Assembly: GCA_036252695.1 (NCBI GenBank) | Contig: GCA_036252695.1_4122.1 | Direction: 5' to 3' (one strand) | Length of the DNA: 64,000 bases | Origin: a phage | Shown here: piece by piece, positions 33,233 to 44,662 of the stretch | Numbering within the stretch: position 1 is the first letter of the stretch | Layout of the letters: each line of letters begins with the position of its first letter | Program-made: the position numbers and the translations under genes | The notes under the pieces: model-generated | What the model was told of the DNA's origin: nothing | The model's input: only the letters and a program-made list of their open reading frames with translations | Database searches by the model: none

Positions 33233-33239
33233 TTCAACA

Positions 33240-35200
33240 TATAGACAGGGGAAGCTCCGTAGGGAAAGCATTGGACAGGCTTTAACATATGTTATATATG
33301 TTAAAATTCAGCCTGCTCGACGTCTGAATTGTTAAAATTCAGCCTGGACAAATGCGATCACTAGGATTCTCCCCAGGCTAAACCCCGTAATCATATGTAG
33401 TCATAAGTAATCATATATAAACATTTATATTAGCACCGTAGAATCACAGAATGATTATATATGATTCAGTACTGATTAGTATAGACAAGATTGCTCAAGA
33501 TTGCTCAAGAATGCTAGGGAAGGATTCAGTACTGCCCCAAAAGTATTCAGTACTGAAGGTGTCGATATCCCACTAAGTAGGCAGAGGAAGTCTGCCGTAC
33601 TTTGTAGTTTCCAAGCTCCTTTTCCATTTTGCAAATTACATCAAATGTAATCAAAAGTAATCACGCAATGATTAGTACTGAATTATTACTTTCACCTTAA
33701 TTACAATTACCCTTTTACCAGTCGGGGTAAAATTCAATTACCCCTTGAGGCTCCAGCAAAAAGTTGGTTAGTACTCCATCCTAAATCTCGATCCTAAAAA
33801 TTTTGGAGTACCTATGAAATAAAAGTTGGATCTTCGAAAGTTGAAATTTACGTTGGGACGTTTATGATTTGTGGGATATAATGATGTTTGTAGTCGGGTA
33901 GTTCTCAAGAATATCAGTACTGAAAGATGAAAGAAAGTTATTGACTTTATGATTCAGTACTGTATAATGTTCTACATAGCTTCAAGGGGTGATGAGTTGC
34001 TGCGAACAATTCATTTACTCTACCTACTGTCGTGAGACAGTACAGAAAAGATAGTTCCTCCTATTGGTGGTACATCTTTTTGAACCTCATATGAAAATCG
34101 TAATAACAGTACTGATATTAACAGAATGGTATCAGTACTGATTTTAATCTAAAGCATTATGCCACCAGCACAAGCTGGTGGATTCCCTCTAACAGTATTC
34201 AGTACTACATGATAGTCTTCATCCTCCTAGGGTAACATAGTGAGGGCTATGATGGCAGTACTGAATACTCCCTTTCAAAAGATAGATCTATGGTATAGTA
34301 CTGACGGATTTTGGGTGTAGTTACCCTGGGTGGATTTTGGACGTAGATATGTCTAGCCCTCCAGAAGTCTGGAAGTAAAGATGGCTATCCATCTAGACGG
34401 CTAAACGGCTAGATTTCTGGATGGCTAGACGTTTGGACGGCTAAACGGCTAGATGGTTACACGTCTGGAAGTATAGACGGCTAAATCAAAATTTTATTTT
34501 GTTTTTTCCAATAGTTCCCCTACCGCGTGGGGATAGTTTCCCCGCAGTATCTGGAGTTAGATTTTTCTGAATCTGGAATCATTATCTTATAAACTGGGGG
34601 CAATGTCAACGGCCTGGACGGATATTTTTAAAAATTTTTTTCAGTACTGAATTTTGGGCGTAACTATGCACCCGGTGGGCTTGAGTCTTTCTCGACTTGA
34701 TGGAACTATTATACAGTACTGAAAAAAATAAAGCAATACCCTGGAAGCAAAAAAGTTTTAATTAATTTGCTTGCTATCCTGGGCCGGACTATGGTACTAT
34801 ATTTCAGTACTGAGAAAGTGCGTTTACCTGCTAGGGTGCGGGAGTGTATCCTTTTTTTATATCTTGAATTTTGGGCGTAATTCCGCACCCTCTGGGGTTT
34901 CCGCTTTCTCGCGTCTATGTAGTAATTATACGCTTTTTCAGGATCAAGTCAATACCTAAAAACAAAATAATTGAAAATAATTTAACGCGTTTAAACGGCC
35001 CGTAAAGCCCTGGAATGATTGGAATGGTGCAAATGTATAGCTTAGGTGTATTAATGCGTTAGAATGCGTCTGAGGCCGTTTTATGGGGTGTAGTAGTGAT
35101 TTGGTTGATTCAGTACTGAATGATAGTACTGAATAATAGTTCCCCTATATAGAAAGAAAACTATTTTAAAAGTACATGTAGAAAGTACTTGCAAACTATG
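33240..35200. repeat. ORF-free repeat-rich region (candidate origin, packaging site or regulatory hub)
   Basis: About 2 kb without a credible ORF; dense (T)CAGTACTGA palindromes (about 17 AGTACT by my read), short direct repeats (gattgctcaag x2, gttaaaattcagcct x2, gtaatca-type), and two ~60-bp related copies at ~34648..34715 and ~34865..34925. Confidence 0.6.
34380..34500. repeat. iteron-like direct repeats
   Basis: GACGGCTAAACGGCTAGAT at 34396..34414 and 34436..34454 plus partial copies (ggatggctagacg, gacggctaaatc) and TCTGGAAGTA twice. Confidence 0.6.
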
Positions 35201-35248
35201 TTTAAAGGCGTATAATGTTTTACATCGAGAGCGGGAACACTTCCCGCT
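35189..35248 (+). promoter_or_regulatory. early-type promoter (TTGCAA..TATAAT 35211..35216) plus 5' leader hairpin (35230..35248)
   Basis: aaagtacTTGCAAactatgtttaaaggcgTATAATgttttacatc then agcgggaa-cac-ttcccgct. Confidence 0.65.
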
Positions 35249-35271
35249 ACACTTTAAAAGAGATTAATACG

Positions 35272-35634
35272 ATGGCGACCCAAATCAATAAAATTATTGC
35301 TAACCTGGTCAACTTCCGTGAAGAGATGAAAGGTCTTCCGGCTGAAACGGTAAAAATTCACATTTCAGCTTATCGGGAACTTATTACAATGTTGCCGCTT
35401 AAGCGTGAACAATACGCCGCTACCGTGATGCTTGATGCGATGATCCATAAGATGATCGCCAGTGATTTAACGATGGTTTATCAGTATATGGGCGAAAATT
35501 TCGCGGTGTATAGTAAACCAGTACCAGGAATGGAAAGTACAGAAGTATTACACGGTTTAAATTTAAAACAAGATGCATGGGATAATATGCCTCGTTTCCT
35601 GGTATGGGCTGACAGTGGCAAAATTTACGAATAA
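35272..35634 (+). CDS. hypothetical early protein
   Basis: Start moved to Met downstream of promoter and leader hairpin (track ORF starts inside -10 box). Confidence 0.55.
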   Translation: MATQINKIIANLVNFREEMKGLPAETVKIHISAYRELITMLPLKREQYAATVMLDAMIHKMIASDLTMVYQYMGENFAVYSKPVPGMESTEVLHGLNLKQDAWDNMPRFLVWADSGKIYE

Positions 35635-35648
35635 GTTTAATAAAGTAC

Positions 35649-35707
35649 TTGCAAACTAAGTTTAAAAGCGTATAATGTTTTACATCAGGTGGGGAATAGT
35701 TCCCCAC
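35649..35707 (+). promoter_or_regulatory. early-type promoter plus leader hairpin
   Basis: TTGCAA 35649..35654, TATAAT 35671..35676, hairpin gtggggaa-tag-ttccccac 35689..35707. Confidence 0.65.
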
Positions 35708-35727
35708 TATATAAGAGGATTAAAAAA

Positions 35728-35967
35728 ATGGCTAAATCAAAAATGTTCTTAGGTCACAAAAACAAAACTCATTGGAATGTAAGCCTTTGGATTAATAACG
35801 ATGAGGCATTGTATCGGCTGGCCCAGGACTTTATTGCCGCCAATACTAATCGTAATGATGCGGCCCGTCATATGATGCTATTTTTAGAACAGACTGGGCA
35901 AGATAAAACTCCAGACGGCTTTAAGTATAGCACTACTGCGATCCGTGCGGCGATGGTTGGAATGTAA
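35728..35967 (+). CDS. hypothetical early protein (paralog of 37770..38009)
   Basis: SD aagagga; shares GHKNKTHWNVSLWINN...TPDGFKYSTTAIRAAMVGM with 37770 gene. Confidence 0.65.
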   Translation: MAKSKMFLGHKNKTHWNVSLWINNDEALYRLAQDFIAANTNRNDAARHMMLFLEQTGQDKTPDGFKYSTTAIRAAMVGM

Positions 35968-36055
35968 TAGAATAGAATTTATTTAAAGTACTATTGCACG
36001 GTGATAGTACTTTATAATAGTGTTTTATTCATACACCAACGATAAGGGCAACAGC

Positions 36056-36322
36056 ATGAATATTAAGTATTTTGCGACGCGTGAACAAGCTCGGATCGCC
36101 GCACGCCAGGACGGGGCAACGTTTAAAGATATGGGCGTACAATCGGAACGTGGTAAACGTTGGGCCATTGTAAAGCGTAGTACCGCCAGATCATTACAGT
36201 ACTGGTTAGCGGCCTTAAAAAGTCCCGATAGTGTATCGCGACGAGTGGTAGAAATAAAGCTCGACCGAAAGGGCAACCGCGTGACCGTGTACCGTACTAA
36301 AAAGATTGCAGTACTTGAATAA
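36056..36322 (+). CDS. hypothetical early protein (paralog of 49098..49493)
   Basis: Shares FATREQARIAAR..TFKDMG..RWA..RKGNRVTVY with 49098 gene. Confidence 0.6.
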   Translation: MNIKYFATREQARIAARQDGATFKDMGVQSERGKRWAIVKRSTARSLQYWLAALKSPDSVSRRVVEIKLDRKGNRVTVYRTKKIAVLE

Positions 36323-36329
36323 AAAGTAC

Positions 36330-36389
36330 TTGCAAACTATGTTTAATGGCGTATAATGTTTTACATCGAGAGCGGGAACACTTCCCGCC
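36330..36389 (+). promoter_or_regulatory. early-type promoter plus leader hairpin
   Basis: TTGCAA 36330..36335, TATAAT 36352..36357, hairpin agcgggaacacttcccgc 36371..36389. Confidence 0.65.
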
Positions 36390-36409
36390 TATAACCTGGA
36401 GTAATAAAA

Positions 36410-36640
36410 ATGACTAATATGTATATGACTGAAGTTAAAACTGTAAAAGATACTACCACGAATAAAACTACTTACTTACAGCGGATCTGCGGTGTATGGC
36501 AACGTATCAGCAAATCAAAGTACTATAAATTAACATCATATGCAAACCGTTCGGATTCATTCAGTACTGAAATAAAAGGTAATAAAGTACACCAATACGG
36601 CACTTATTATTATTATAGCCTGGACGCGATTGCAGTATAA
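36410..36640 (+). CDS. hypothetical early protein
   Basis: 76-aa ORF with SD ggag. Confidence 0.55.
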   Translation: MTNMYMTEVKTVKDTTTNKTTYLQRICGVWQRISKSKYYKLTSYANRSDSFSTEIKGNKVHQYGTYYYYSLDAIAV

Positions 36641-36887
36641 GCAGTTTACAAATCTTTACAATTGCCGGTATTGACTTATTTTGTCAGTACTGGCATAATG
36701 TATTCATTGGCAGATAAGCCGTAGCCCATAGGGTGCGGGAGTGTATCTATAGAAAAAGTAGTTTAGTATAGTTACAATTGTGCACCCGGTGGGTTAGCTG
36801 TTGTCATGGGGTATATTATGCCAGTACTTGATAATGCTGTCAATACTTTTTTAATATTCAGTACTGAAAACTATTTTTAAAAAGTAC

Positions 36888-36915
36888 TTGCAAACTATGT
36901 TTAAAGGCGTATAAT
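36888..36915 (+). promoter_or_regulatory. early-type promoter (upstream of structured element)
   Basis: TTGCAA 36888..36893, TATAAT 36910..36915. Confidence 0.6.
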
Positions 36916-36924
36916 GTTTTACAT

Positions 36925-37004
36925 CAGGACGGGGAACGAAATAAGTAACTTCCCGTTAAGTAGCCCAGGAGTAAGGCACACGAAAAACTCCCCTGATAAA
37001 ATAG
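36925..37004 (+). ncRNA. candidate structured RNA element / long leader (copy 1)
   Basis: ~80 nt between two tandem promoters; near-identical copy at 47900..47979 (3 substitutions) while flanks diverge; internal complementary arms (cgggga..tcccg; cagg..ctcccctg). Confidence 0.4.
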
Positions 37005-37005
37005 T

Positions 37006-37035
37006 TTGACAAATGTTTTTTTAAAAGCGTATAAT
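37006..37035 (+). promoter_or_regulatory. sigma70-type promoter
   Basis: TTGACA 37006..37011, 18-nt spacer, TATAAT 37030..37035. Confidence 0.6.
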
Positions 37036-37067
37036 ACTTACATCAACTACTGAATGAGGGTTACAAA

Positions 37068-37679
37068 ATGAAAACTATCACTACTACTACTTATGTTATG
37101 GATTTTTCTGAATTGAACGCAGAACAAAAAACGTCAGCTATCGAACTGGTTCGGGATCGTGAGCGTTCATGCGGTGATTATTTCTTTTCTGAGGGCGTAT
37201 ACGAATACTATAAAGAAACAATTTTGCCGGAGTATGGCATTGATGACGCTGATTTGCAATTCAGTGGTTTTTGGTCGCAAGGTGACGGTGCATCAATTAG
37301 TACTGACCACGTTGACGCAGTGAAGTTTTTACGTAAGGTAAGAGCATTAACTAAGTATCGCTCAATCCGGCACCTGCTGAATGAAGATGATTTGGCGATG
37401 AGTGTAAAGCGTTATCACTACCACTACTCGCATGAGAATACTGTAAGCGGGTACATTGAATCGGCTTACACTGATTTAACCGCAAAACAAGAAACGTTAG
37501 TTAATGAGCTTGAGGAACTACTCACTGACACTATTCGTGAATTGTCCCGCAAGTTGTACCGTGATTTAGAGAATGCATATGAGGATCAATTCACTACTGA
37601 AAACATTACGGCACTGATTGAGGGTAACGAATATCAATTCAATGTTATTGATGGCGTAGTAGAATCAATCGAATATTAA
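37068..37679 (+). CDS. hypothetical protein (203 aa)
   Basis: ORF with SD gaggg; E. coli-like codons. Confidence 0.7.
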   Translation: MKTITTTTYVMDFSELNAEQKTSAIELVRDRERSCGDYFFSEGVYEYYKETILPEYGIDDADLQFSGFWSQGDGASISTDHVDAVKFLRKVRALTKYRSIRHLLNEDDLAMSVKRYHYHYSHENTVSGYIESAYTDLTAKQETLVNELEELLTDTIRELSRKLYRDLENAYEDQFTTENITALIEGNEYQFNVIDGVVESIEY

Positions 37680-37769
37680 TTTAAAAAGTACTTGCAAACT
37701 AAGTTTAAAAGCGTATAATACTTTATATCGAGGCGGGGAGTGGTTCCCCGCTCAAACGAGGATTTAAAA

Positions 37770-38009
37770 ATGGCTAGTACTAAAACTTACAACGGACACA
37801 AAAACAAAACTCATTGGAATGTAAGCCTTTGGATTAATAACGGTGAGTCATTGTATCGGCTTGCTCAAAGTTGCATCGCACAAAGTAGAACTAAAGATAT
37901 TGCAGCGGAATGTATGTACCGCAGATTAAAAGCCAACGGTACTACTACAACGCCGGACGGCTTTAAGTATAGCACTACTGCGATCCGTGCTGCAATGGTT
38001 GGAATGTAA
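37770..38009 (+). CDS. hypothetical early protein (paralog of 35728..35967)
   Basis: Promoter TTGCAA/TATAAT (37714..37719) and hairpin 37734..37751 upstream. Confidence 0.65.
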   Translation: MASTKTYNGHKNKTHWNVSLWINNGESLYRLAQSCIAQSRTKDIAAECMYRRLKANGTTTTPDGFKYSTTAIRAAMVGM

Positions 38010-38067
38010 TATTCAGTACTGTAACAATGGCGGGGAATGGTTCCCGCCTTTATTGAGGGTTTATCTA

Positions 38068-38328
38068 ATGAGTAAAGTAATTAACTATACAGTACTAAGC
38101 AAGTCATTATCTATCAGTCATTGCACCGATGGTTATTGGCTATTTGATGAAACGCGTGGCATGAATTTAGCTATGCGTGCAAAAACTGCTGAGGCGGCGT
38201 ATATTCAAGCACTGGAATACTACCAGGAACGTTTAAAGGAAGTAGAAGAAGATTATAAAAGCCTCAAAGCGAAAGTAGATCATTTCGTCGGTCAATTCAT
38301 CGAGGAAGACGACGACAAACAATATTGA
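38068..38328 (+). CDS. hypothetical early protein
   Basis: Start after hairpin ggcggggaatggttcccgcc (38029..38048) and SD gaggg. Confidence 0.55.
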   Translation: MSKVINYTVLSKSLSISHCTDGYWLFDETRGMNLAMRAKTAEAAYIQALEYYQERLKEVEEDYKSLKAKVDHFVGQFIEEDDDKQY

Positions 38329-38336
38329 AAAAGTAC

Positions 38337-38396
38337 TTGCAATTAGTTTCAAGTACTGTATAATGGTTTACATCAAAGGGGGAAATGGTTCTCCCT
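38337..38396 (+). promoter_or_regulatory. early-type promoter plus leader hairpin
   Basis: TTGCAA 38337..38342, TATAAT 38359..38364, hairpin agggggaaatggttctccct 38377..38396. Confidence 0.6.
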
Positions 38397-38414
38397 GGTA
38401 ATGAGGAAAATAAA

Positions 38415-38636
38415 ATGGCTAATATCACTACTCTTTCCCAACTGGAAGCACTGGTTAAATCTATGCGGGAACATGCCGACAAAATCGGCGTACAAGATCC
38501 AGCCGTTTGCTTCTGCGACGAATTGAATGATGATACACTGGTAATAGCAGAAGTCCAGGACGTTTCTAACTATTCCTCGCGTTACACTGGCGGCGTAGCA
38601 AATAAAGGTGACTTCTGTTTATACCTTACAAAATAA
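38415..38636 (+). CDS. hypothetical early protein
   Basis: Start at Met after leader hairpin; SD gagga. Confidence 0.55.
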   Translation: MANITTLSQLEALVKSMREHADKIGVQDPAVCFCDELNDDTLVIAEVQDVSNYSSRYTGGVANKGDFCLYLTK

Positions 38637-38640
38637 CAAC

Positions 38641-38671
38641 GCGGGGAGATAATAACTCCCCGTTACTTTTT
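38641..38671 (+). terminator. intrinsic terminator
   Basis: cggggag-ataataa-ctccccg followed by T run. Confidence 0.55.
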
Positions 38672-38804
38672 CAGTACTGAATCATTTAATAGACGGATCT
38701 ATGCACCCGGTGGGTTAGTGACTGTTTCGTCTTGATGTAGTAATTATGCCAGTACTGGATGCACTTGTCAACAATTATTTTTCAAATACTTTTTATTAAA
38801 ATAC

Positions 38805-38858
38805 TTGCAATTAGTTTTTAAACGCGTATAATGTTTTGCATAGGGGGAGCGGTTCCCC
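38805..38858 (+). promoter_or_regulatory. early-type promoter plus leader hairpin
   Basis: TTGCAA 38805..38810, TATAAT 38827..38832, hairpin gggggagcggttcccc 38843..38858. Confidence 0.6.
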
Positions 38859-38879
38859 TGGTAACTAAGGAATAATAAA

Positions 38880-39137
38880 ATGCTTGAACAAATCAAATCA
38901 ACGTCTGCGAATGTAACGGGAACGGTAGCACACTTTACTAGTGATGAATCGCGGGGCGTTCCCTATTGTGCTGTACATGTAAACACTGAGGGTAACTACT
39001 GGTTTACGGTTTACGGATCATATTCATTTGGACGGCCAGGGCATCAAAAAATTCTGGATAAAGTACAACCAACGGGTAAAAATATCACTGCCGAAATGTT
39101 TTATAAAAATCATAAAGTACTTGATAATAGTTTTTAG
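38880..39137 (+). CDS. hypothetical early protein
   Basis: 85-aa ORF, SD aagga. Confidence 0.6.
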   Translation: MLEQIKSTSANVTGTVAHFTSDESRGVPYCAVHVNTEGNYWFTVYGSYSFGRPGHQKILDKVQPTGKNITAEMFYKNHKVLDNSF

Positions 39138-39199
39138 TACTGTATAATATTTTACATCGCAAGGGGGAGCGGTTCCCCCTGGTAACTAAGGATAATCAA

Positions 39200-39499
39200 A
39201 TGAAAATTGCAATCATCGCCCTGGCTTTATCTGTTTCCTCTTTCGCTGTTAATGCGTCATTAGATGTAAGTAGTGAAAAATTCATTCAGTGCACTGTTGC
39301 AATGACCGATGAAAGAACTGGCGAGATTGTATTAAAGGATTTAGAGATCCAGCCAGAAGCATTTAAAAACGGGCCGTTCCATGAAGAAGACGAAAAAGGT
39401 AGCACGACAATTTATTACGATGCAAGTACTAAACGCGGTTCGGTCACTGTTATGGATACTGAGAAAGTAACTCATACTGGCGTTATTAATTGCCGTTGA
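39200..39499 (+). CDS. small secreted/periplasmic protein (predicted signal peptide)
   Basis: N-term MKIAIIALALSVSSFAVNA-S fits signal peptidase I pattern; promoter and hairpin upstream. Confidence 0.6.
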   Translation: MKIAIIALALSVSSFAVNASLDVSSEKFIQCTVAMTDERTGEIVLKDLEIQPEAFKNGPFHEEDEKGSTTIYYDASTKRGSVTVMDTEKVTHTGVINCR

Positions 39500-39520
39500 T
39501 AGATACTACGGGGTAACATC

Positions 39521-39751
39521 ATGACTAAGCGAATTGTTTTACTTAACGAAAGCAGTACTACACAACTACTTAACGCCGTGCATTATGATATTGAAACGAG
39601 CGTTAATCTTATCAGTACTGTAGTACTATTGGACACTGGAAAGGTCGCCAATGATAAAGCGATTGCAGGTATATTAACGGATCTTGAGCCTGGTAGCAGT
39701 GCACCAATAACGTTAAATGGTAAAGTGTTTAATATTTTACTCACTGATTAA
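39521..39751 (+). CDS. hypothetical protein
   Basis: 76-aa ORF; followed by terminator. Confidence 0.5.
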   Translation: MTKRIVLLNESSTTQLLNAVHYDIETSVNLISTVVLLDTGKVANDKAIAGILTDLEPGSSAPITLNGKVFNILLTD

Positions 39752-39756
39752 GTACA

Positions 39757-39780
39757 TAGCCCACCTGGTGGGCTTTTTTG
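39757..39780 (+). terminator. intrinsic terminator
   Basis: agcccacc..ggtgggct stem then TTTTTT. Confidence 0.7.
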
Positions 39781-39984
39781 TTTTTGTAGTATCGTAGTAC
39801 TGAGATACTTTAAAAATAGTTTTAAAAAAGTAGTTGACATTACCACAAAAAGGCGTAGAATGTATTACATCAAGACGGGGAGCACTAAGTAGACCGCCAG
39901 TAAGTCGAACGAAAAACTGGACACGTCGAGAAAACTTTGATACACTAATAAACGTAAACTAAACTTTAATTGAGGATTTATAAA

Positions 39985-40467
39985 ATGGCTAATGTAAAAT
40001 CATTCATCAAAGCACTGGTAGCAAATGAAACTAACGTAGCGGCAGAGATCCTGGCTGAACTGGATAACGATACCATGAAAGCGGTACGCAATAATTTTAA
40101 CATCGCTTACAGTACTGCGAAAGAACTACAAGCAAATAAAGCGGCAGAAATTGAAGCGGCAAAGGCGGCCCGTGAAGCAGAACTACAAGCAACAATTGAA
40201 AGTATCCAGGCGGCAGTAGTTGGATTGGATCTGGAAGTAGTTACAGAGATGGCACAAAAAGCCCTGGCGGTTAAGTATGGGGAAGACAAGCCAGAAGTAA
40301 AAGCCAAAAAATGGATTCAGGAACGCGTAGCGGTAGTACTGGACAACGGGGAAGAATATCTGATTCCGGTGCGTGGTAACTGCATTGCGGTAGTACTGGA
40401 TGCGATTAACTCCAGTGGTATGACTCGCGAGGAATGGATCGAAGCTCATCGCAAAGTGGAAGCATAA
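39985..40467 (+). CDS. hypothetical protein (Ala/Glu-rich, predicted helical)
   Basis: Start MANVKSF after SD gagga; long structured leader from promoter at ~39836. Confidence 0.6.
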   Translation: MANVKSFIKALVANETNVAAEILAELDNDTMKAVRNNFNIAYSTAKELQANKAAEIEAAKAAREAELQATIESIQAAVVGLDLEVVTEMAQKALAVKYGEDKPEVKAKKWIQERVAVVLDNGEEYLIPVRGNCIAVVLDAINSSGMTREEWIEAHRKVEA

Positions 40468-40488
40468 CAATTAAAGTACTGAATCACT

Positions 40489-40515
40489 AGCCCACTGCAT
40501 AAGTGGGCTTTTTTG
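40489..40515 (+). terminator. intrinsic terminator
   Basis: gcccact-gcataa-gtgggc then TTTTTTG. Confidence 0.7.
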
Positions 40516-40751
40516 TGTTTATCGTTTACCAGGCCACCAGCACCGCCTAGAATCGATTCTAACGCATTAAACTGATTATCTGATGCATCGCCCTAGCTGG
40601 TGGCGTTAAGGTCGTTAGAATGCGATTGAGAGCGTTTAAAGTATTTTGCAAAAAGTAATAAAAAGTACTTGCACGATTAAGAGATTAGCGTATAATGTTT
40701 TACATCGAGAGGGGGAAACGGTTCTCCTTCCAAATCAAAGGAATTAAAACA

Positions 40752-40979
40752 ATGGCTATCGTAATCACTCGCGTAACTGGTACTACTGGCAATTCTTCTA
40801 CTGTTGCTGTAATTACTAATAAGAAAGGTGCGGAACTACATTTTGCAATGTATAACTGGTCAGTTGATGAGTTTGGTCAGTACGCTAGTGTAGAATACAT
40901 TGAAACCTATCAAGTGCCGTCGATTAGTTTAACTGATTTGGGCGTTGAGCGTATCCTTTGCCTGGATGAATTAAATTAA
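40752..40979 (+). CDS. hypothetical early protein
   Basis: Start MAIVITRV after promoter and hairpin gggggaaacggttctcc. Confidence 0.55.
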   Translation: MAIVITRVTGTTGNSSTVAVITNKKGAELHFAMYNWSVDEFGQYASVEYIETYQVPSISLTDLGVERILCLDELN

Positions 40980-41065
40980 AAAAGTACTTGCAAAGTAAAT
41001 CGAATAAAGTATAATACATTACATCAAGGGGAGAAATGGTTCTCCCTGATAATGAGGAAACTAAT

Positions 41066-41209
41066 ATGAAAACTTGTCAATGTGGTAAAAAATCTATTAC
41101 TGGTTTAAAGCGGGGCGTTGCTCTTTGTCAGTACCATTATAATTTACAAGTATGGGGTAAAGAATGGGCCGACCAGGTGGAAGCAGCAAAGAAAGCAAAA
41201 AGTAAGTAA
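41066..41209 (+). CDS. small Cys-containing protein (47 aa; CQCG..CQYH)
   Basis: Hand-translated ORF behind promoter and hairpin with SD gagga; below track cutoff. Confidence 0.4.
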   Translation: MKTCQCGKKSITGLKRGVALCQYHYNLQVWGKEWADQVEAAKKAKSK

Positions 41210-41228
41210 AAATATTATCACAGTACTA

Positions 41229-41257
41229 TTGACATAGTTTGATAGTACTGACATAAT
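41229..41257 (+). promoter_or_regulatory. class-2 promoter (AGTACT-flanked TTGACA..CATAAT)
   Basis: cagtactaTTGACAtagtttgatagtactgaCATAAT; same motif at ~41510, ~44590, ~52315. Confidence 0.55.
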
Positions 41258-41288
41258 AGATTTTATCAAGACAACTGAGGAAAATAAA

Positions 41289-41501
41289 ATGGCTATCATC
41301 ACTAAAATCAAAGTAAGTAAAACCCTGGTTAAACTTGAACAAGTGAAAGCAGGTTATAAAGTATCTTGGTGCGGTATGTATCGGATGTTCGCAGATATTG
41401 ATGAAGCAATCAATTATTACAGCGACACGGTTAAAAACTTTGTTCGTGCTGATGTGGTTATGGCAGTGGCAACGCACAAAGCAGCGAAAGAAAGTAAGTA
41501 A
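41289..41501 (+). CDS. hypothetical early protein (paralog of 44663..44842)
   Basis: MAIITKIKV..; similar N-term and length to 44663 gene. Confidence 0.55.
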   Translation: MAIITKIKVSKTLVKLEQVKAGYKVSWCGMYRMFADIDEAINYYSDTVKNFVRADVVMAVATHKAAKESK

Positions 41502-41590
41502 AAATATTATCACAGTACTATTGACATAGTTTGATAGTACTGGCATAATAGATTTTATCAAGACAACATATTAATTTAAGGAATACAAAA

Positions 41591-41914
41591 ATGGCTAAAA
41601 CTATCATTAACACCGTTTCCCTGGCTGCAATCCGTGCAATCAATGTTGACGGTAAACGTTGGACTGATTCATATGGCAATACTTATCATTCTTGTCATGT
41701 AAGCGTCGAACTGGATAACGGTTTGAATGATCTGGCGGTTGAATCATTTACTTATGGCTATGAAGATGCATATCAACAAACGGCGTTAGATCTATTAAAG
41801 GAATCAGTAGACGGGCTTAATACTGATGAAACCTCCCTTACTCGTTTGTGCAATGATCTTAATATCCCGTTGCATTGTACTGTACAGAATGTTAAACGCA
41901 AAAAAGATCTTTAA
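41591..41914 (+). CDS. hypothetical protein (paralog of 48675..48998)
   Basis: Shares RWTDSxGNTYHSCxVS and C-terminal VKRKKD with 48675 gene. Confidence 0.65.
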   Translation: MAKTIINTVSLAAIRAINVDGKRWTDSYGNTYHSCHVSVELDNGLNDLAVESFTYGYEDAYQQTALDLLKESVDGLNTDETSLTRLCNDLNIPLHCTVQNVKRKKDL

Positions 41915-41994
41915 TTAGCTTTACTTTATGCAGATACTTTGATATAGTGTCTGCATAGGGGAAAGAAATTAAATTAACTTAAGAGGAACGTATA

Positions 41995-42264
41995 ATGAAA
42001 AATATCAGTACTTTAATCGATGCAGGTACTCATGTTCGTCGGTCTATGGTTGCAACCAGTACTACAAAACAAGTAGCGAGCGGTTATCTTGTATTTGTGC
42101 ACGATGGTAAACTCCTGGAACGTTCAATCAATTTTGATGTTAAAAACAATTGCCGTTTTATTATCTTTAAGCGTGAACAATATAAAATTGATTTACCAGC
42201 GAAGCCCATAAGCGGGGCGTACAACGTGCAATCATTGTTTGAACGTCAACCATACACCTATTAA
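41995..42264 (+). CDS. hypothetical protein
   Basis: 89-aa ORF with SD gagga. Confidence 0.55.
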   Translation: MKNISTLIDAGTHVRRSMVATSTTKQVASGYLVFVHDGKLLERSINFDVKNNCRFIIFKREQYKIDLPAKPISGAYNVQSLFERQPYTY

Positions 42265-42315
42265 TCAAAACATCGTTAGCGGTCGATTTAGGCCGCTTGT
42301 ATTGGGGATTATACC

Positions 42316-42486
42316 ATGAACGTTAATCAAGTACTGAATGAGATCGAAAGCATCATTAAACCAATGAAACGCATTGATGCTATGTTAACACCGGAAGAAT
42401 GCCGCCTTTATGAGCGTTACAGTGTGGAACAAGCCCAGGAAATGGCCCGTATCCGTCCGGTTGCCAGTACTGATAAGGCGGCGTAA
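42316..42486 (+). CDS. hypothetical small protein (56 aa)
   Basis: Hand-translated; coupled to next gene (TAATATG). Confidence 0.35.
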   Translation: MNVNQVLNEIESIIKPMKRIDAMLTPEECRLYERYSVEQAQEMARIRPVASTDKAA

Positions 42487-42487
42487 T

Positions 42488-42697
42488 ATGCTTACTGTAC
42501 AGGATAAGATCGACATCTTAAAGGTTAATATGTATGTGATTGATGCCGTACCTGGTAAAGTATTTGCATACGATGATTCTAATCGCAGTCCGTTTTATTG
42601 CAGTCATGTAGTTGGATACGTGCCGTTGGCGTATGTTATAGAAAGAGTGGTTGATGCAGCATACAAACATTTTTTAGAAAATAATACTTGCAATTAG
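42488..42697 (+). CDS. hypothetical protein
   Basis: Start at internal Met MLTVQDK right after upstream stop. Confidence 0.45.
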   Translation: MLTVQDKIDILKVNMYVIDAVPGKVFAYDDSNRSPFYCSHVVGYVPLAYVIERVVDAAYKHFLENNTCN

Positions 42698-42767
42698 TTT
42701 TCAGTACTGTATAATGATTTACATCGAGAGCGGGAATAGTTCCCGCCTCACTTTTAAGGAATATGAA

Positions 42768-42914
42768 ATGAAAGCATCAAAAAAGAGTAATACTAAGAAA
42801 GCATGTTCACCTTTCGCTGGGGTATTCCCTTTACGTTTTGTTGATGAAGTAGTTTCCTACCCGCCGGGCCTTACTCCTGAGATGGTAGAAAGTTTGCGTA
42901 AATCTAAAAAATAG
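42768..42914 (+). CDS. hypothetical small basic protein (48 aa)
   Basis: Promoter, leader hairpin agcgggaatagttcccgc and SD aagga upstream. Confidence 0.45.
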   Translation: MKASKKSNTKKACSPFAGVFPLRFVDEVVSYPPGLTPEMVESLRKSKK

Positions 42915-42996
42915 TACTTGCAATTAGTTTTTAGTACTGTATAATAGTTTACATGAAGGGGAAAACGTTCCCCTTACACCTAACGAGGAAAGTATA

Positions 42997-43248
42997 ATGG
43001 AAACAATTTTAATCAAAGACACTGCTACTACTGTAACTTATGATAATGATTGCATTATCCCAGGGACTGAGTACGGCGAACGTGTACCCGTTCAAGTAGA
43101 GATTGATACCACATACATCGACAAGGCTGACCAGTGTATCACTATTGTAATTGGTGAATATCGTTTTCTACCAGAAGAGATCCAAAAATGGCAGAATATG
43201 ATTGACCGTGCGAAATTAGTCGCACAAAGTTTAAAATACAAAGTTTAA
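42997..43248 (+). CDS. hypothetical early protein
   Basis: Promoter, hairpin ggggaaaacgttcccc, SD gagga. Confidence 0.55.
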   Translation: METILIKDTATTVTYDNDCIIPGTEYGERVPVQVEIDTTYIDKADQCITIVIGEYRFLPEEIQKWQNMIDRAKLVAQSLKYKV

Positions 43249-43334
43249 AATAATACTTGCAATTAGTTTTTAAACGCGTATAATGTTTTACATGAAGGGG
43301 AGAAATGATTCTCCCCAATAACAGGAGAAACAAA

Positions 43335-43487
43335 ATGAAACAATACAACGCTCGGTTTGATGTTACTATCGGTAACGGCAAAGGTCAATTCTCTTTCAGT
43401 ACTCGCAAAAGTTATACAGAAAACTTCCTGCGTAATTGTGCACTGACCGCCGCACAAATTAAACATTACTTTCAGGCTAAAAAATGA
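43335..43487 (+). CDS. hypothetical small protein (50 aa)
   Basis: Promoter and hairpin ggggagaaatgattctcccc upstream; SD aggaga. Confidence 0.45.
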   Translation: MKQYNARFDVTIGNGKGQFSFSTRKSYTENFLRNCALTAAQIKHYFQAKK

Positions 43488-43573
43488 AATCATTAGCTTA
43501 TTACAGTTCGGCCCTGGTCGGTGCATTGATCGCGGCGTTGTTAGTAACCTATCTATTCTTTATGGTGATTTAA
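43484..43573 (+). CDS. putative 29-aa single-TM peptide
   Basis: Hand-translated MKSLAYYSSALVGALIAALLVTYLFFMVI; ATGA-coupled; speculative. Confidence 0.25.
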   Translation: MKSLAYYSSALVGALIAALLVTYLFFMVI

Positions 43574-43717
43574 ATGAATCCAACAGGTTTAAACTATAAA
43601 AGTTGTTCGGCGTTTACGAAAGCAAATAAAGCGAATGCACGTAAAGCGAAAGTAAAGGAGTACATCAAGCAAGGCATGACGCGAAAGGCGGCGATTCTAA
43701 AAGCTAAAAATAAATGA
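43574..43717 (+). CDS. putative small basic protein (47 aa)
   Basis: Hand-translated Lys-rich ORF directly after previous stop; speculative. Confidence 0.25.
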   Translation: MNPTGLNYKSCSAFTKANKANARKAKVKEYIKQGMTRKAAILKAKNK

Positions 43718-43860
43718 AAAAAGTGGTTGACTCCGGTCAGCCATTTTGCTATTATATATTCATTGAGAGATAGCTCACTAGCCCACAGGGTGCATAAGTG
43801 TATCTATTATATAAGTATTGAGTACTGAAAACTATTTTAAAAAAGTACTTGCAAACTATC
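43715..43860 (+). repeat. composite intergenic repeat unit (terminator with embedded TTGACT + TATTAT box + ~65-nt conserved segment)
   Basis: ggttgactccggtcagcc hairpin, gctattatata, then ..tagcccacagggtgcataagtgtatctat..cagtactgaaaactatttt; related copies near 47720, 51005, 52940; hairpin/-10 part also at 386..418 and 2014..2046. Confidence 0.55.
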
Positions 43861-43927
43861 TCAATAAGCGTATAATGTTTTACATCGAAAGGGGAAACGG
43901 TTTCCCCTGGTAATAAGGAAACAAATC

Positions 43928-44269
43928 ATGACTATCTCAATTGCTCAATCTAACTTTGAAAACGAAATCATCGCCCAGGCACTGCGTTTAAATGATGGTC
44001 GGGCCGAAATTAATTACGGTTTCAATTCAGGCGGTTGTGAAAAATATCAGTACTTTGTAACGGCTGATGGCGGTGTCCTGGGTATCAATACAGTTATTGT
44101 AAACATCCAAAAAATTAATTTCAATGATCCAGACGATAGCCAGTTTTACATCACTGGCGTAGACGTGAACTATGAGGATGACTCACTAACTGATGATCAC
44201 ACTGGCGAGCGGTTAGAAAGTGCATACGGTGAAGATGATTATCAGTCCGGTCCAGAAGATTTCGAATAA
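43928..44269 (+). CDS. hypothetical acidic protein
   Basis: 113-aa ORF behind promoter, hairpin ggggaaacggtttcccc and SD aagga. Confidence 0.6.
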   Translation: MTISIAQSNFENEIIAQALRLNDGRAEINYGFNSGGCEKYQYFVTADGGVLGINTVIVNIQKINFNDPDDSQFYITGVDVNYEDDSLTDDHTGERLESAYGEDDYQSGPEDFE

Positions 44270-44366
44270 TATAAAAAAAATAGTTTGACAATAGATTATA
44301 GTACTGTATAATAGTTTACATCAAGGGGAGAAAAACTTCTCCCCACTAACAGAGAGAGAAAACAAA

Positions 44367-44579: not shown

Positions 44580-44662
44580 AAATATTATCACAGTACTATT
44601 GACATAGTTTGATAGTACTGACATAATAACTTTTATCAACTACACTACTAAGGAATTAAAAA

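What the first reader, a model, noticed from the sequence alone, without database searches (positions are those of the whole stretch)
33240..35200. 2-kb ORF-free repeat-rich region with iteron-like direct repeats
The only long non-coding stretch in the window separates the EYY arrays from the early gene block. It has tandem ACGGCTAAACGGCTAGAT iterons (34396..34414, 34436..34454, partial copies), other short direct repeats, two ~60-bp related elements (34648..34715, 34865..34925) and many CAGTACTG palindromes. Candidate replication origin, packaging (pac) region or genome-end/terminal-repeat boundary; it could also hold small non-coding RNAs.
Basis: partly seen in the sequence, partly recalled or inferred. 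Interest (0 to 1): 0.65.

Follow-up and report, generated by a model that had tools for sequence, protein, structure and literature searches.

The report
Phage genome end with MetJ-box array
The 2-kb gene-free stretch contains the left physical end of a giant E. coli phage genome followed by its non-coding leader, and the "iterons" in it are a run of 13-15 binding boxes for the host methionine repressor MetJ, three to four times longer than the E. coli MetJ operators scored the same way here.

Summary

The window is an Asteriusvirus (PBECO4/G17-like) jumbo coliphage. Published termini of near-identical phages (G17, fEgEco12, vB_Ec-M-J) place the left genome end at window 33576. The ~21.2-kb direct terminal repeat runs to 54746. 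The region is therefore the last 343 bp of unique DNA plus a 1.7-kb non-coding leader that is conserved across several jumbo-phage genera.

The "iterons" are not 18-bp replication iterons. They form a head-to-tail array of 8-bp units at 34347-34482. The majority consensus is AGACGTCT, the MetJ "metbox". Thirteen consecutive boxes pass a published MetJ matrix (97 bits; E. coli metB/J and metF operators score 4 boxes, 25-31 bits). Similar arrays lie close to terminal-repeat boundaries, where those are annotated, in T5-like Vibrio, Aeromonas and Providencia phages and in podoviruses. I found no report of this.

The two "60-bp elements" are leftward early-class promoters followed by a covarying hairpin and no gene. 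The leader also holds a double-Chi hairpin and a rightward promoter for a short non-coding RNA.

The origin reading is untested. MetJ binding and its purpose are inferred, not shown.

The parts
33233..35271 (.). ORF-free interval: 343 bp of unique right-end DNA plus a 1.7-kb non-coding leader of the terminal repeat
   Evidence: largest ORF-free gap. (first early gene starts at ATG 35272). (internal ORFs have no family match).
33299..33346 (+). TGTTAAAATTCAGCCTG x2 (33299-33315, 33330-33346), part of a hairpin after the last EYY ORF. Only one copy is present in fEgEco12.
33387..33429 (+). 10-bp GTAATCA-type repeats left of the terminus. A second set at 33640-33663 lies right of it. Inverted TGATTA copies are at 33452, 33473 and 33669.
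   Evidence: 4 of the 10 forward GTAATCA copies in the window lie within 270 bp around the terminus. Copy number varies: 3 copies in vB_Ec-M-J.
33576..54746 (+). Direct terminal repeat (21,171 bp in this window), single collapsed copy
   Evidence: Left boundary. Right boundary ...GGGCGGGTAACCT. DTR sizes reported as 20,668-21,525 bp in relatives.
33576..33601 (+). Left physical end of the packaged genome (first base 33576) with a terminal hairpin (GGCAGA-GGAAG-TCTGCC, 33580-33596) and GAAGTC at nt 12-17
   Evidence: three Asteriusvirus records start here. (fold, z -2.25). (GAAGTC at the same offset from the reported termini of CBB, XbC2 and BF).
33771..33811 (+). Module A: 8-bp stem GTACTCCA/TGGAGTAC with two ATCCTAAA in the loop. 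Conserved near the left end in other genera.
   Evidence: Munch/Kae01 86-128 at 93%; XbC2 54-120 at 82%; GAP32.
33941..33968 (+). Promoter P1, TTGACT-16-TATAAT (11/12), with CAGTACTG directly before the -10
33975..34081 (+). Predicted P1 transcript: three hairpins, the last (34046-34081) terminator-like. No credible ORF.
   Evidence: z -2.7. (only 20-28-aa ORFs). The 8-nt indel in fEgEco12 is seen.
34107..34140 (+). 14-bp hairpin made of two CAGTACTG copies, followed by ATTTTAAT; terminator-like
   Evidence: z -6.3 for 34090-34195.
34162..34181 (.). Hairpin CCACCAGC-ACAA-GCTGGTGG: two Chi octamers in opposite orientation, 586 bp from the left end
   Evidence: The same structure is in Munch/Kae01 at 484-503. 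It is annotated as a terminator in G17.
34306..34349 (+). Two copies of GRATTTTGGRYGTAR. Two more lie inside the E and D modules at 34649 and 34866.
   Evidence: family D3. (also beside the array in GAP32 and BF).
34347..34482 (.). Array of 17 in-phase 8-bp units. 15 pass the MetJ box threshold, and 13 are consecutive (34379-34482, 97 bits).
34483..34509 (.). AT-rich tract (about 86% A+T over 34483-34510) next to the array
34506..34545 (.). Conserved box TTCCAATAGTTCCCCTACCGCG plus G/C hairpins. The same block follows the array in XbC2, GAP32, BF and Yen9-04.
   Evidence: (z -3.5 on the minus strand).
34581..34609 (-). Leftward promoter TTGACA-17-GATAAT (11/12), firing towards the array
34649..34736 (-). 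Module E (first '60-bp element'): leftward promoter TTGCTT-17-TATAAT (34708-34736) plus an orphan 5' leader with hairpin GTC-GAGAAA-GAC
   Evidence: R1 61.6 bits.
34771..34858 (+). Weak rightward promoter candidate (TTGCTA-18-TACTAT) and a short RNA ending at terminator 34833-34858, convergent with module D
   Evidence: terminator. (a clear promoter at the homologous place in Muenster). (plus-strand partners in six other phages)..
34866..34952 (-). Module D (second '60-bp element'): leftward promoter TTGACT-16-TATAAT (34925-34952) plus an orphan 5' leader with hairpin CGC-GAGAAA-GCG
   Evidence: 96% identical to Salmonella phage Munch; R1 81.6 bits.
35189..35271 (+). First early-gene promoter (aaAGTACTTGCAA-16-TATAAT-gttttACAT), 5' hairpin at 35229-35250, and ribosome-binding site before ATG 35272

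Best explanation
The stretch holds the left physical end of an Asteriusvirus jumbo-phage genome and the non-coding leader behind it.

**Layout.** Packaged DNA begins at 33576, which is the first base of a ~21-kb direct terminal repeat ending at 54746. The 343 bp to its left are the end of the unique sequence.

**Contents of the 1.7-kb leader, left to right:**
1. A terminal hairpin and GTAATCA repeats flanking the cut site. These are candidate terminase recognition sequences.
2. A strong rightward sigma-70 promoter making a structured RNA of roughly 105 to 210 nt with no gene, ending at strong hairpins.
3. A hairpin built from two opposed Chi sites.
4. A block of 13-15 tandem 8-bp MetJ operator boxes (the 'iterons'), followed by an AT-rich tract.
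5. Three leftward early-class promoters with orphan 5'-leader hairpins (the two '60-bp elements' plus one more).
6. The first of about 45 stereotyped early promoters of the repeat.

**Mechanism I commit to (inferred).** This is cis-acting DNA on which host proteins act: RNA polymerase at the promoters, RecBCD at Chi, and MetJ with its cofactor S-adenosylmethionine on the box array.
- The array most likely works as a decoy that soaks up MetJ as phage DNA multiplies, derepressing host methionine/SAM synthesis.
- It could alternatively, or additionally, act as a SAM-dependent roadblock or insulator between the genome end and the early genes.
- It is an accessory element. It is not the origin, and it is not the packaging signal.

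**Shown versus inferred.** The terminus position (by identity with mapped relatives), the box array and its match to MetJ specificity, the promoters, the Chi sites and the covarying hairpin are shown. MetJ binding, RNA expression and every consequence are inferred.
For: **Identity and terminus**
- 42 phage records match at 90-98%, all PBECO4/G17-like.
- DTRs of ~20-21 kb are published for G17, fEgEco12 and Sharanji.
- Three records start or end exactly at the sequence of window 33576.
- The right boundary is identical in fEgEco12 and G17.
- GAAGTC lies at the same offset from the reported termini in three other jumbo-phage records (CBB, XbC2, BF; two further genera).

**MetJ array**
- With the published MetJ matrix (PMC3228920), the only site in 64 kb is 34379-34482: 13 boxes, 97 bits.
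- Simulated 64-kb sequences give at most 3 boxes.
- The same method finds the real metJ/metB and metF operators (4 boxes each, 31 and 25 bits) and nothing else in 6.3 kb of E. coli.
- The 17 in-phase units include 15 distinct sequences. Their majority consensus is AGACGTCT, and their base frequencies correlate r=0.93 with natural metboxes. Other registers give r<=0.02.
- Arbitrary octamer repeats with the same variability reach that r in 6 of 200,000 trials.
- Heterogeneous arrays of 9-34 boxes occur in Mimas- and Eneladusvirus jumbo phages, in T5-like Vibrio, Aeromonas and Providencia phages and in the podovirus PGT2; the podovirus KPV811 has a 4-box run. Where termini or repeat boundaries are annotated (CBB, PGT2, PR1, KPV811 and the Asteriusvirus records) they lie within about 1 kb of one.
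- 95 of 96 matching records are phages whose hosts belong to the orders that have MetJ.
- No phage record encodes a MetJ homologue.
- T5, Muenster and Munch/Kae01 lack the array, so it is accessory.

**Promoters and RNAs:**. The hairpin covaries (3 pairs; 0 of 500 shuffles reach the score) across 11 copies from at least five phage lineages, and the module recurs.

**Chi:** 13 copies against 0.74 expected. The double-Chi hairpin is conserved in Munch/Kae01.
Against: - No read data exist for this isolate, so the terminus rests on identity with relatives.
- MetJ binding was not tested.
- More than half of the boxes carry G instead of the preferred T at position 6 (AGACGGCT).
- The array overlaps no recognisable promoter, unlike natural MetJ operators.
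- The array is a tandem repeat, so its boxes are not independent. A loose box pattern also picks up plain octamer microsatellites in unrelated viruses and bacteria.
- One carrier, XbC2, is labelled a Xanthomonas phage, and that host order has no MetJ.
- The host distribution is confounded by the host ranges of the phage families involved.
- Nearness to terminal-repeat boundaries in three phage families would also fit an end-related role.
- A single incoming genome would bind only about 15-30 MetJ dimers, so titration can matter only after replication.
Confidence: 0.7

Rival explanations
1. Replication origin. Either a classical iteron origin (initiator protein bound to direct repeats next to an AT-rich unwinding element), or a T4 oriF/oriG-type origin in which a transcript from one of the gene-less promoters forms an R-loop in the AT-rich tract and primes DNA synthesis.
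For: - An AT-rich tract at 34483-34509 lies next to the repeat array, and there is a second at 34622-34641.
- Several strong promoters have no gene behind them.
- GC skew changes sign at about 33.0-33.6 kb.
- The leader is conserved across genera.
- Rak2-like phages have a T4-type replisome (PMC5259590).
Against: - The repeat unit is 8 bp and matches a host repressor operator.
- There is no DnaA box in the region.
- No initiator-like gene lies beside it; the neighbouring genes are small PHROGs of unknown function.
- The skew change coincides with the genome end, where gene content also changes from the EYY ORF arrays to the early genes.
- The same arrays in T5-like phages lie in the terminal repeat, whereas T5 origins map near the middle of the genome.
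- Related phages (Muenster, Munch/Kae01 and, among the T5-like phages, T5 itself) lack the array.
Confidence: 0.2
2. Packaging (pac/cos-like) region. The repeats, including the 8-bp array, are binding sites for the phage small terminase or for a host factor recruited by it (as IHF is at lambda cosB), and they direct the cut at 33575/33576.
For: - The cut site lies inside the region.
- GTAATCA repeats and a hairpin flank it on both sides.
- The terminus-proximal GAAGTC is conserved across genera.
- The 8-bp arrays lie within about 1 kb of a terminal-repeat boundary in the jumbo, T5-like (PR1) and podovirus records where boundaries are annotated.
Against: - The array is 771 bp from the cut.
- It is missing from related phages with the same kind of long terminal repeat: T5 among the T5-like phages, Muenster and Munch/Kae01 among the jumbo phages.
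- No motif is shared between the left (33576) and right (54746) boundaries beyond generic AGTACTG words.
- The three phage families have unrelated terminases (my own knowledge).
- This rival is more likely for the 33387-33663 repeats than for the array.
Confidence: 0.25
3. The 8-bp array is bound by a phage-encoded protein (for example a ribbon-helix-helix protein with MetJ-like spacing) rather than by host MetJ. The likeness to metboxes is convergence.
For: - Systematic departures from the optimum are seen: G at position 6 here, A at position 4 in Vibrio phage Pontus.
- There is no met gene or promoter under the array.
- XbC2 is labelled as infecting a host order that has no MetJ.
Against: - Three unrelated phage families would each need such a protein.
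- No MetJ homologue is found in 50,697 phage records.
- Base preferences match MetJ including the secondary choices (G1, C3, T4, G6), with r=0.93.
- Per-box scores equal those of real operators.
Confidence: 0.12
4. The array is a neutral octamer microsatellite and the rest of the region is spacer DNA without function.
For: - Array length varies in 8-bp steps among close relatives.
- Octamer microsatellites that satisfy a loose box pattern are common in unrelated genomes.
Against: - 15 of the 17 units are different sequences yet keep the metbox consensus. In the microsatellites retrieved as controls, the commonest unit makes up a median of 90% of the array.
- The array and its flanks are kept in three jumbo-phage genera whose surrounding DNA has diverged beyond BLAST detection.
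- The random-relabelling test gives 6 of 200,000.
Confidence: 0.04

Closest known systems
E. coli MetJ operators (metF, metB/metJ, metA, metE and others): tandem 8-bp metboxes, consensus AGACGTCT
   Same: - Exact 8-bp head-to-tail spacing.
- The same consensus.
- The same position-specific base preferences (r=0.93).
- Per-box scores like those of real operators (about 7.5 bits per box here, 6.2-7.8 in metF and metB/J).
   Different: - 13-15 boxes here, and up to 28-34 in other phages. The metB/J and metF operators score 4 boxes each with the same method; natural operators are usually described as having 2-5 (my own knowledge).
- No promoter or met gene lies under the array.
- It sits in phage DNA next to a genome end.
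- G is frequent at position 6.
Large untranslated repeat region of the phage T5 left terminal repeat (the 'injection stop signal' region), where Davison proposed host DnaA boxes (bioRxiv 10.1101/866236)
   Same: - A ~1-2 kb ORF-free, repeat- and palindrome-rich region inside a long terminal repeat of a virulent phage, conserved among relatives.
- It is proposed to bind a host DNA-binding protein.
- In T5-like Vibrio, Aeromonas and Providencia phages, the metbox array sits in what appears to be this region: next to DRD-like repeats in Pontus, and about 770 bp from the inner repeat boundary in PR1.
   Different: - T5 itself has no metbox array, and this window has no DnaA box in the region.
- In the T5-like phage PR1, and for the homologous untranslated region of T5, the region is at the inner end of the repeat. 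Here it is at the outer (left) end.
- Two-step DNA transfer is not known for Asteriusvirus.
Left end of phage T7: terminal repeat, arrays of short repeats (SRL), and strong E. coli promoters A1-A3 ahead of the first gene (my own knowledge)
   Same: - A non-coding leader at the genome end with short direct repeats of unknown role.
- It is followed by strong host-polymerase promoters reading inward.
- The ends are exact, with a direct terminal repeat.
   Different: - The T7 repeat is 160 bp, not 21 kb.
- T7's short repeats are not metboxes.
- T7 has no leftward promoters or Chi pair there.
Iteron origins (plasmids P1, R6K, pSC101; lambda ori)
   Same: Direct repeats beside an AT-rich tract.
   Different: - The unit is 8 bp, not 17-22 bp, and the spacing is not helical-phase.
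- There is no initiator gene beside it.
- There are no DnaA boxes.
Titration (decoy) loci for DNA-binding proteins, such as datA for DnaA (my own knowledge)
   Same: A cluster of high-affinity sites for a regulator, not tied to a promoter, whose copy number rises with replication.
   Different: It would be phage-borne and aimed at a metabolic repressor. No experimental support exists.

Membership tests
Physical genome end / direct-terminal-repeat boundary | Sequence identical to an experimentally mapped terminus of a close relative | tested here: met
   fEgEco12 position 1, the G17 last base and vB_Ec-M-J position 1 all equal window 33576. Mapping methods are described in PMC13070987 and PMC6563267.
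Physical genome end / direct-terminal-repeat boundary | Doubled read depth across the repeat and read-start pile-ups at the ends in this isolate | not testable with these tools
   No reads are available. The window holds one collapsed copy of the repeat.
Physical genome end / direct-terminal-repeat boundary | Second boundary at the expected distance | tested here: met
   The right boundary ...GGGCGGGTAACCT is at 54746, 21,171 bp away. It is identical to the G17 and fEgEco12 ends.
MetJ operator (metbox array) | Two or more adjacent 8-bp boxes, each >= 1/4 and together >= 1x the consensus score of the published matrix | tested here: met
   13 adjacent boxes, 97 bits against the 12.58 required. 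The method recovers the metB/J and metF operators.
MetJ operator (metbox array) | Base preferences at each of the 8 positions like natural metboxes | tested here: met
   r=0.93 in register and <=0.02 out of register. The null test gives 6 of 200,000.
MetJ operator (metbox array) | Overlaps the promoter of a methionine/SAM gene | tested here: not met
   There is no promoter-like site within 34347-34482 and no gene.
MetJ operator (metbox array) | Host encodes MetJ | tested here: met
   E. coli has metJ. 95 of 96 array-bearing phage records have hosts in MetJ-containing orders. The exception is XbC2.
MetJ operator (metbox array) | SAM-dependent binding by MetJ | not testable with these tools
   Needs EMSA, footprinting or ChIP.
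Iteron-type replication origin | Direct repeats of about 17-22 bp | tested here: not met
   The base period is 8 bp.
Iteron-type replication origin | Adjacent initiator gene | tested here: not met
   There is no ORF with a family match inside the region. The flanking genes are small PHROGs of unknown function.
Iteron-type replication origin | DnaA boxes and an AT-rich unwinding element | tested here: inconclusive
   No TTWTNCACA in the region. An AT-rich tract is present.
Small non-coding RNA genes | Promoter, no ORF, terminator or defined 3' end | tested here: inconclusive
   P1 has all three. The leftward modules have promoters and no conserved ORF, but no clear terminator.
Small non-coding RNA genes | Structure supported by covariation | tested here: met
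   Hairpin 1 of the D/E module: 3 pairs, each with 2-4 pair types; 0 of 500 shuffles reach the score. Hairpin 2 is mostly invariant.
Small non-coding RNA genes | Membership of a described RNA family | tested here: not met
   No Rfam match.
Chi site (RecBCD regulator) | Exact GCTGGTGG, oriented to meet RecBCD entering from the nearby end | tested here: met
   CCACCAGC on the top strand at 34162, 586 bp from the left end. The orientation rule comes from my own knowledge.

The most novel reading that the evidence does not exclude
Virulent phages of at least three unrelated families (Rak2-like jumbo myoviruses, T5-like siphoviruses of Vibrio, Aeromonas and Providencia, and phiKT/PGT2-like podoviruses, with a short 4-box run in the Drulisvirus KPV811) have each placed a giant array of host MetJ operator boxes next to a terminal-repeat boundary. 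They would use the MetJ-SAM complex as a working part of the phage life cycle, not merely as a decoy. One possibility is a SAM-sensing gate or roadblock that controls transcription or DNA transactions at the incoming genome end. Another is an architectural host factor for end processing, comparable to IHF at lambda cos.
Probability: 0.15. Interest if true: 0.9.

Novelty: new variant of a known kind. Interest (0 to 1): 0.72.

Why it matters
Long terminal repeats in these jumbo phages are already published, so the genome-end reading alone is ordinary.

What is new is the content of the leader. It holds an array of MetJ operator boxes three to four times longer than the E. coli metB/J and metF operators scored the same way (seven to eight times in some other phages), and such arrays recur close to terminal-repeat boundaries in phages of several families.

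I found no mention of this in the paper library.

If MetJ binds, this would be a previously undescribed way for lytic phages to tap or sense host methionine/SAM metabolism. That pathway already matters for restriction, BREX and phage SAM lyases.

It would also give a concrete, testable candidate for the unexplained repeat regions in T5-like terminal repeats.

The tests are simple: gel shift, infection of a metJ-null host, and deletion of the array.

Tried and rejected
**RNA and protein searches that found nothing useful**
- tRNA and Rfam searches: nothing.
- Coding potential of internal ORFs. They are preserved in 95-100% identical relatives, which is uninformative. Several carry stops, and none has a Pfam or PHROG match.
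- A phage-encoded MetJ. tblastn of E. coli MetJ against 50,697 phage records returned only bacterial contamination.

**Motif searches that failed**
- A shared motif at the left and right repeat boundaries: none beyond AGTACTG words.
- DnaA boxes, as in T5: none in the region.
- T5 'DRD' repeats as metboxes: rejected. DRD is TGTGCAAATCCGACA, and the T5 repeat has no array.

**Collection scans**
- A degenerate 5-box pattern was scanned over IMG/VR and over bacterial genomes.
- IMG/VR returned real arrays in T5-like-sized contigs, but also many perfect octamer microsatellites.
- It therefore could not test taxonomic restriction. It served only as a control showing that box counts alone are not proof.

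**Unresolved points**
- Strand of the D/E hairpin from G-U pairs: one case favours each strand. The minus strand was chosen from promoter context.
- Minimum-energy folding of the E transcript as a whole gave no signal (z 0.14).
Full report
**What the window is**

The region matches 42 phage records at 90-98% identity. All are PBECO4/121Q/G17-like jumbo coliphages, genus Asteriusvirus, with genomes of 350-385 kb. Several records hold the region twice, which fits a terminal repeat.

Published work gives these phages direct terminal repeats of about 20-21 kb:
- G17, from read coverage (PMC6563267).
- fEgEco12, 20,993 bp, by PhageTerm and confirmed by restriction digests (PMC13070987).
- Sharanji, 20,668 bp, by PhageTerm (PMC11895373).
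- vB_Ec-M-J, annotated at 21,525 bp.

**Observation check**

- The last small 'EYY' ORF ends at 33232.
- The next listed ORF starts at 35215, but that ATG lies inside the -10 box of its own promoter. The PHROG match is full-length from ATG 35272, giving 120 aa.
- The non-coding stretch is therefore 33233-35271. It is the largest ORF-free gap in the window.
- The identical 19-mers at 34396 and 34436, the two 80-nt related elements (34635-34714 and 34852-34931, 71% identical) and the 12 CAGTACTG copies are all present.
- CAGTACTG occurs 62 times in the window against 1 expected.
- No tRNA and no meaningful Rfam match were found.

**The genome end lies inside the region**

- fEgEco12 begins AGTAGGCAGAGGAAGTCTGCC.
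- The reverse complement of the last bases of G17 is the same sequence, and so is the start of vB_Ec-M-J.
- In the window this sequence starts at 33576.
- The other boundary...GGGCGGGTAACCT, is the last sequence of fEgEco12 and the first of G17 in reverse complement. It lies at window 54746.
- The window therefore holds one collapsed copy of a 21,171-bp repeat with unique DNA on both sides.
- Reported left termini of the more distant jumbo phages CBB, XbC2 and BF carry GAAGTC at the same offset, nt 12-17, as here. The ends are therefore likely homologous across genera.
- Relatives also have 1.2-1.7 kb at their left ends with no or almost no annotated ORFs.
- I could not test read coverage for this isolate.

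**Anatomy of the region, left to right**

*Before the cut*
- A hairpin with a duplicated TGTTAAAATTCAGCCTG.
- 10-bp repeats containing GTAATCA.
- Three CAAGATTGCT repeats.
- Three CAGTACTG copies.

*At the cut*
- A hairpin at 33580-33596.
- A second set of GTAATCA repeats at 33640-33663. Their copy number varies between isolates.

*Inside the leader*
- Module A (33771-33811) is an 8-bp stem with two ATCCTAAA in its loop. It is 82-93% identical to elements 54-130 nt from the left ends of Munch, Kae01 and XbC2.
- Promoter P1 (33941-33968, TTGACT-16-TATAAT) faces right. The predicted RNA folds into three hairpins, the last terminator-like (z -2.7). It has no credible ORF.
- Two very stable hairpins follow (z -6.3). 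One is built from two CAGTACTG copies. The other, 34162-34181, reads CCACCAGC-ACAA-GCTGGTGG, which is two Chi octamers in opposite orientation.
- Chi occurs 13 times in the window against 0.74 expected. All nine top-strand copies lie in the terminal repeat.
- The double-Chi hairpin is conserved in Munch and Kae01 at 484-503.
- By the usual orientation rule (my own knowledge), the copy at 34162 is correctly oriented for RecBCD entering at the left end.

**The 'iterons' are MetJ boxes**

Alignment with distant phages showed that the repeat is a head-to-tail array of exactly 8-bp units. TRF agrees, reporting periods of 8, 16, 32 and 40. From 34347 the units read:

ATATGTCT AGCCCTCC AGAAGTCT GGAAGTAA AGATGGCT ATCCATCT AGACGGCT AAACGGCT AGATTTCT GGATGGCT AGACGTTT GGACGGCT AAACGGCT AGATGGTT ACACGTCT GGAAGTAT AGACGGCT

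This is the architecture of the operator of the E. coli methionine repressor MetJ: tandem 8-bp 'metboxes' with consensus AGACGTCT.

*Scoring with a published matrix*
- I used the published weight matrix and thresholds of Augustus and Spicer (PMC3228920).
- The only site in the 64-kb window is 34379-34482: 13 adjacent boxes totalling 97 bits, against the 12.58 bits needed to call a site.
- Only 1.4% of window positions pass the single-box threshold.
- 100 simulated 64-kb sequences never gave more than 3 boxes.
- The same script finds the real metJ/metB operator (4 boxes, 31.2 bits) and the metF operator (4 boxes, 24.9 bits), and nothing else, in 6.3 kb of E. coli K-12.

*Controlling for the fact that it is a tandem repeat*
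- Boxes in a tandem repeat are not independent, so I looked for a control.
- A loose 5-box pattern scanned over IMG/VR and over bacterial genomes also returned plain octamer microsatellites, such as AAACATTT xN, in unrelated organisms. In those, the commonest unit makes up a median of 90% of the array.
- The phage array differs. Fifteen of its 17 units are distinct sequences, their majority consensus is exactly AGACGTCT, and their position-by-position base frequencies correlate r=0.93 with 832 natural half-boxes. The secondary preferences (G1, C3, T4, G6) are matched too.
- Shifted registers give r of 0.02 or less.
- Arbitrary octamer repeats with the same variability, allowed their best register, reach r>=0.928 in 6 of 200,000 trials.

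*Distribution of the arrays*

| Phage | Group | Boxes (bits) | Position |
|---|---|---|---|
| fEgEco12 | Asteriusvirus | 15 (108.7) | 795-914 from left end |
| CBB | Mimasvirus | 4+7 | 709-804 from its left end |
| XbC2 | Mimasvirus | 4+8 | 672-775 from record start |
| GAP32 | Mimasvirus | 4+7 | 3490-3585 in the record |
| Serratia BF | Eneladusvirus | 4+4+3 | 697-800 from record start |
| Yersinia Yen9-04 | Eneladusvirus | 9 | 29-100 from record start |
| Vibrio Pontus | T5-like | 15 | next to T5 'DRD'-like repeats |
| Aeromonas AhSzq-1 | T5-like | 28 (221) | ORF-free gap near the A1/A2 genes |
| Providencia PR1 | T5-like | 9 | about 770 bp inside the inner boundary of its 10,461-bp repeat |
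| IMG/VR contig, 119,931 bp | T5-like size | 34 | not placed |
| E. coli PGT2 | podovirus | 9 | nt 38-109 of the genome |
| Klebsiella KPV811 | podovirus | 4 | 66-97 nt from its right end |

- Pooled over ten arrays, the consensus is AGACGTCT and r=0.93.
- A BLAST with the Aeromonas array found 96 phage records. All hosts are Enterobacterales, Vibrio or Aeromonas, except XbC2, which is labelled a Xanthomonas phage.
- MetJ exists only in Enterobacterales, Pasteurellales, Vibrionales, Aeromonadales and Alteromonadales. This agreement is suggestive but confounded by the host ranges of the phage families.
- No phage record encodes a MetJ homologue.
- T5 itself, Muenster and Munch/Kae01 have no array, so it is an accessory element.
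- Among Asteriusvirus isolates, array length changes in 8-bp steps.

**The two '60-bp elements'**

- On the minus strand each element starts with a near-consensus sigma-70 promoter: 34952-34925 (TTGACT-16-TATAAT) and 34736-34708.
- The promoter is followed by TACAT, a short hairpin with loop GAGAAA, a second small hairpin, and UACGCCCAAAAUUC.
- Thirteen copies from at least five phage lineages align from the -35 box onward.
- In an 11-sequence alignment, the three core pairs of the first hairpin are paired in 91-100% of sequences with 2-4 different pair types each. None of 500 shuffles reaches the covariation score, and slid controls are far lower. The second hairpin is mostly invariant.
- A covariance model finds the two window copies (81.6 and 61.6 bits) and the copies in relatives. 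In six other phages it also finds a plus-strand partner immediately adjacent, which gives convergent promoter pairs around an inverted repeat CCCACAGGGTGCGG..CCGCACCCTGTGGG.
- The same model gives weaker hits in front of ordinary early genes in the repeat.
- These elements are therefore early promoter-plus-leader modules with no gene behind them, pointing towards the genome end.
- A third leftward promoter (34609-34581) fires towards the MetJ array.

**CAGTACTG**

- About 45 stereotyped early promoters fill the repeat, of the form aaAGTACTTGCAA-N16-TATAAT-gttttACAT.
- AGTACT sits either just before the -35 or, as CAGTACTG, just before the -10.
- This explains part of the enrichment. Many copies lie outside promoters, including in coding DNA of the left part of the window.
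- The function of the palindrome is unresolved.

**How it most likely works**

*Shown*
- The end position, by identity with mapped relatives.
- The promoters, the Chi sites and the box array with its fit to MetJ specificity.
- The covarying hairpin.
- Conservation across genera.

*Inferred*
- The leader is cis-acting DNA at the genome end on which host proteins act.
- I rate MetJ binding at roughly 0.7-0.75.
- As to purpose, the simplest reading is a decoy. Each genome copy offers 13-15 boxes per repeat, so replication would soak up MetJ and derepress methionine and SAM synthesis.
- A SAM-dependent roadblock between the end-proximal part and the early genes is an alternative.
- The absence of the array from related phages (T5 among the T5-like phages; Muenster and Munch/Kae01 among the jumbo phages) argues against it being the origin or the core packaging signal.
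- Its repeated placement close to a terminal-repeat boundary, wherever boundaries are annotated, keeps an end-related role open.
- The GTAATCA repeats and the hairpin around 33576 are the better candidates for terminase recognition.
- A T4-type R-loop origin (orphan promoter plus AT-rich tract) cannot be excluded. The GC-skew sign change at 33.0-33.6 kb coincides with the genome end, where gene content also changes, so it does not decide the matter.

**Literature**

- Searches linking MetJ or metboxes with phages or terminal repeats found nothing relevant.
- Davison's analysis of the T5 untranslated repeat region proposes DnaA boxes and does not mention MetJ.
- The CBB and fEgEco12 papers do not describe the leader.
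- The library lacks most subscription-journal papers, so prior description cannot be ruled out.

**Verdict**

- The iteron/origin reading is not supported.
- The unexpected result is the MetJ-box array.

Noticed in passing
window 34162-53061 (whole terminal repeat): Chi (GCTGGTGG) occurs 13 times in the window against 0.74 expected. All 9 top-strand copies lie inside the terminal repeat, oriented to be read by RecBCD entering from the right genome end. Bottom-strand copies in the repeat are at 34162 and 40534.
   Followed up: partly
window, whole; for example 35182-35187, 36685-36692, 47032-47039: AGTACT occurs 265 times, and CAGTACTG 62 times against 1 expected. It is built into the stereotyped early promoters, just before the -35 or just before the -10. 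It is also frequent in coding DNA outside the repeat. The binding partner is unknown.
   Followed up: partly
window 35215-35634: Public records annotate the first early gene as 139 aa starting at an ATG inside its own -10 box (TATAATG). The PHROG match and the ribosome-binding site support ATG 35272 (120 aa).
   Followed up: yes
window 35189-53860, plus strand: About 45 near-identical sigma-70 promoters (aaAGTACTTGCAA-N16-TATAAT-gttttACAT) precede the early genes. The first two are each followed by a 5' hairpin before a small early gene, and the D/E covariance model gives weaker hits in front of several others. This is a very dense, uniform early transcription block inside the repeat.
   Followed up: partly
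window 8386-8495, 9595-9696, 15165-15271, 17235-17335, 18441-18549, 20902-21006: Repeats of about 100 nt (88-95% identical) lie after each of the minus-strand RCC1-like paralogous genes, around their terminators.
   Followed up: no
window 28100-33232: An array of paralogous ~60-aa ORFs (the 'EYY' ORFs) lies on the plus strand. The two tested, at 32823-33232, match phrog_11711 (unknown function). The stretch has negative GC skew although it is coded on the plus strand.
   Followed up: no
L007 (Xanthomonas phage XbC2) 672-775: A phage labelled as infecting Xanthomonas, an order without MetJ, carries a 4+8 metbox array like its Mimasvirus relatives CBB and GAP32. Either the host label or the MetJ reading needs checking.
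   Followed up: no
L012 (Vibrio phage Pontus) 3000-3200; L019 (T5) 9672-9870: In Pontus the metbox array abuts repeats of GTGCAAATCCGACA, the same sequence as the T5 'DRD' repeats of the untranslated region of its terminal repeat. T5 has the DRD repeats but no metbox array.
   Followed up: partly
L014, L010, L009, L018, L007, L005: In other genera the leftward promoter-leader module has a plus-strand partner immediately next to it. This forms convergent promoter pairs around an inverted repeat CCCACAGGGTGCGG..CCGCACCCTGTGGG, and some pairs lie deeper in the terminal repeat.
   Followed up: partly
window 54660-54746: Just inside the right boundary of the terminal repeat there is an 8-bp-stem hairpin, AATCCCTT...AAGGGATT. 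No motif is shared with the left boundary.
   Followed up: no
L021-L058 and L060-L139 (collection scans): Perfect octamer microsatellites (for example AAACATTT or GGATGGCT repeated 6-15 times) are common in giant-virus contigs and Bacteroidota genomes. Several sit at contig ends.
   Followed up: no
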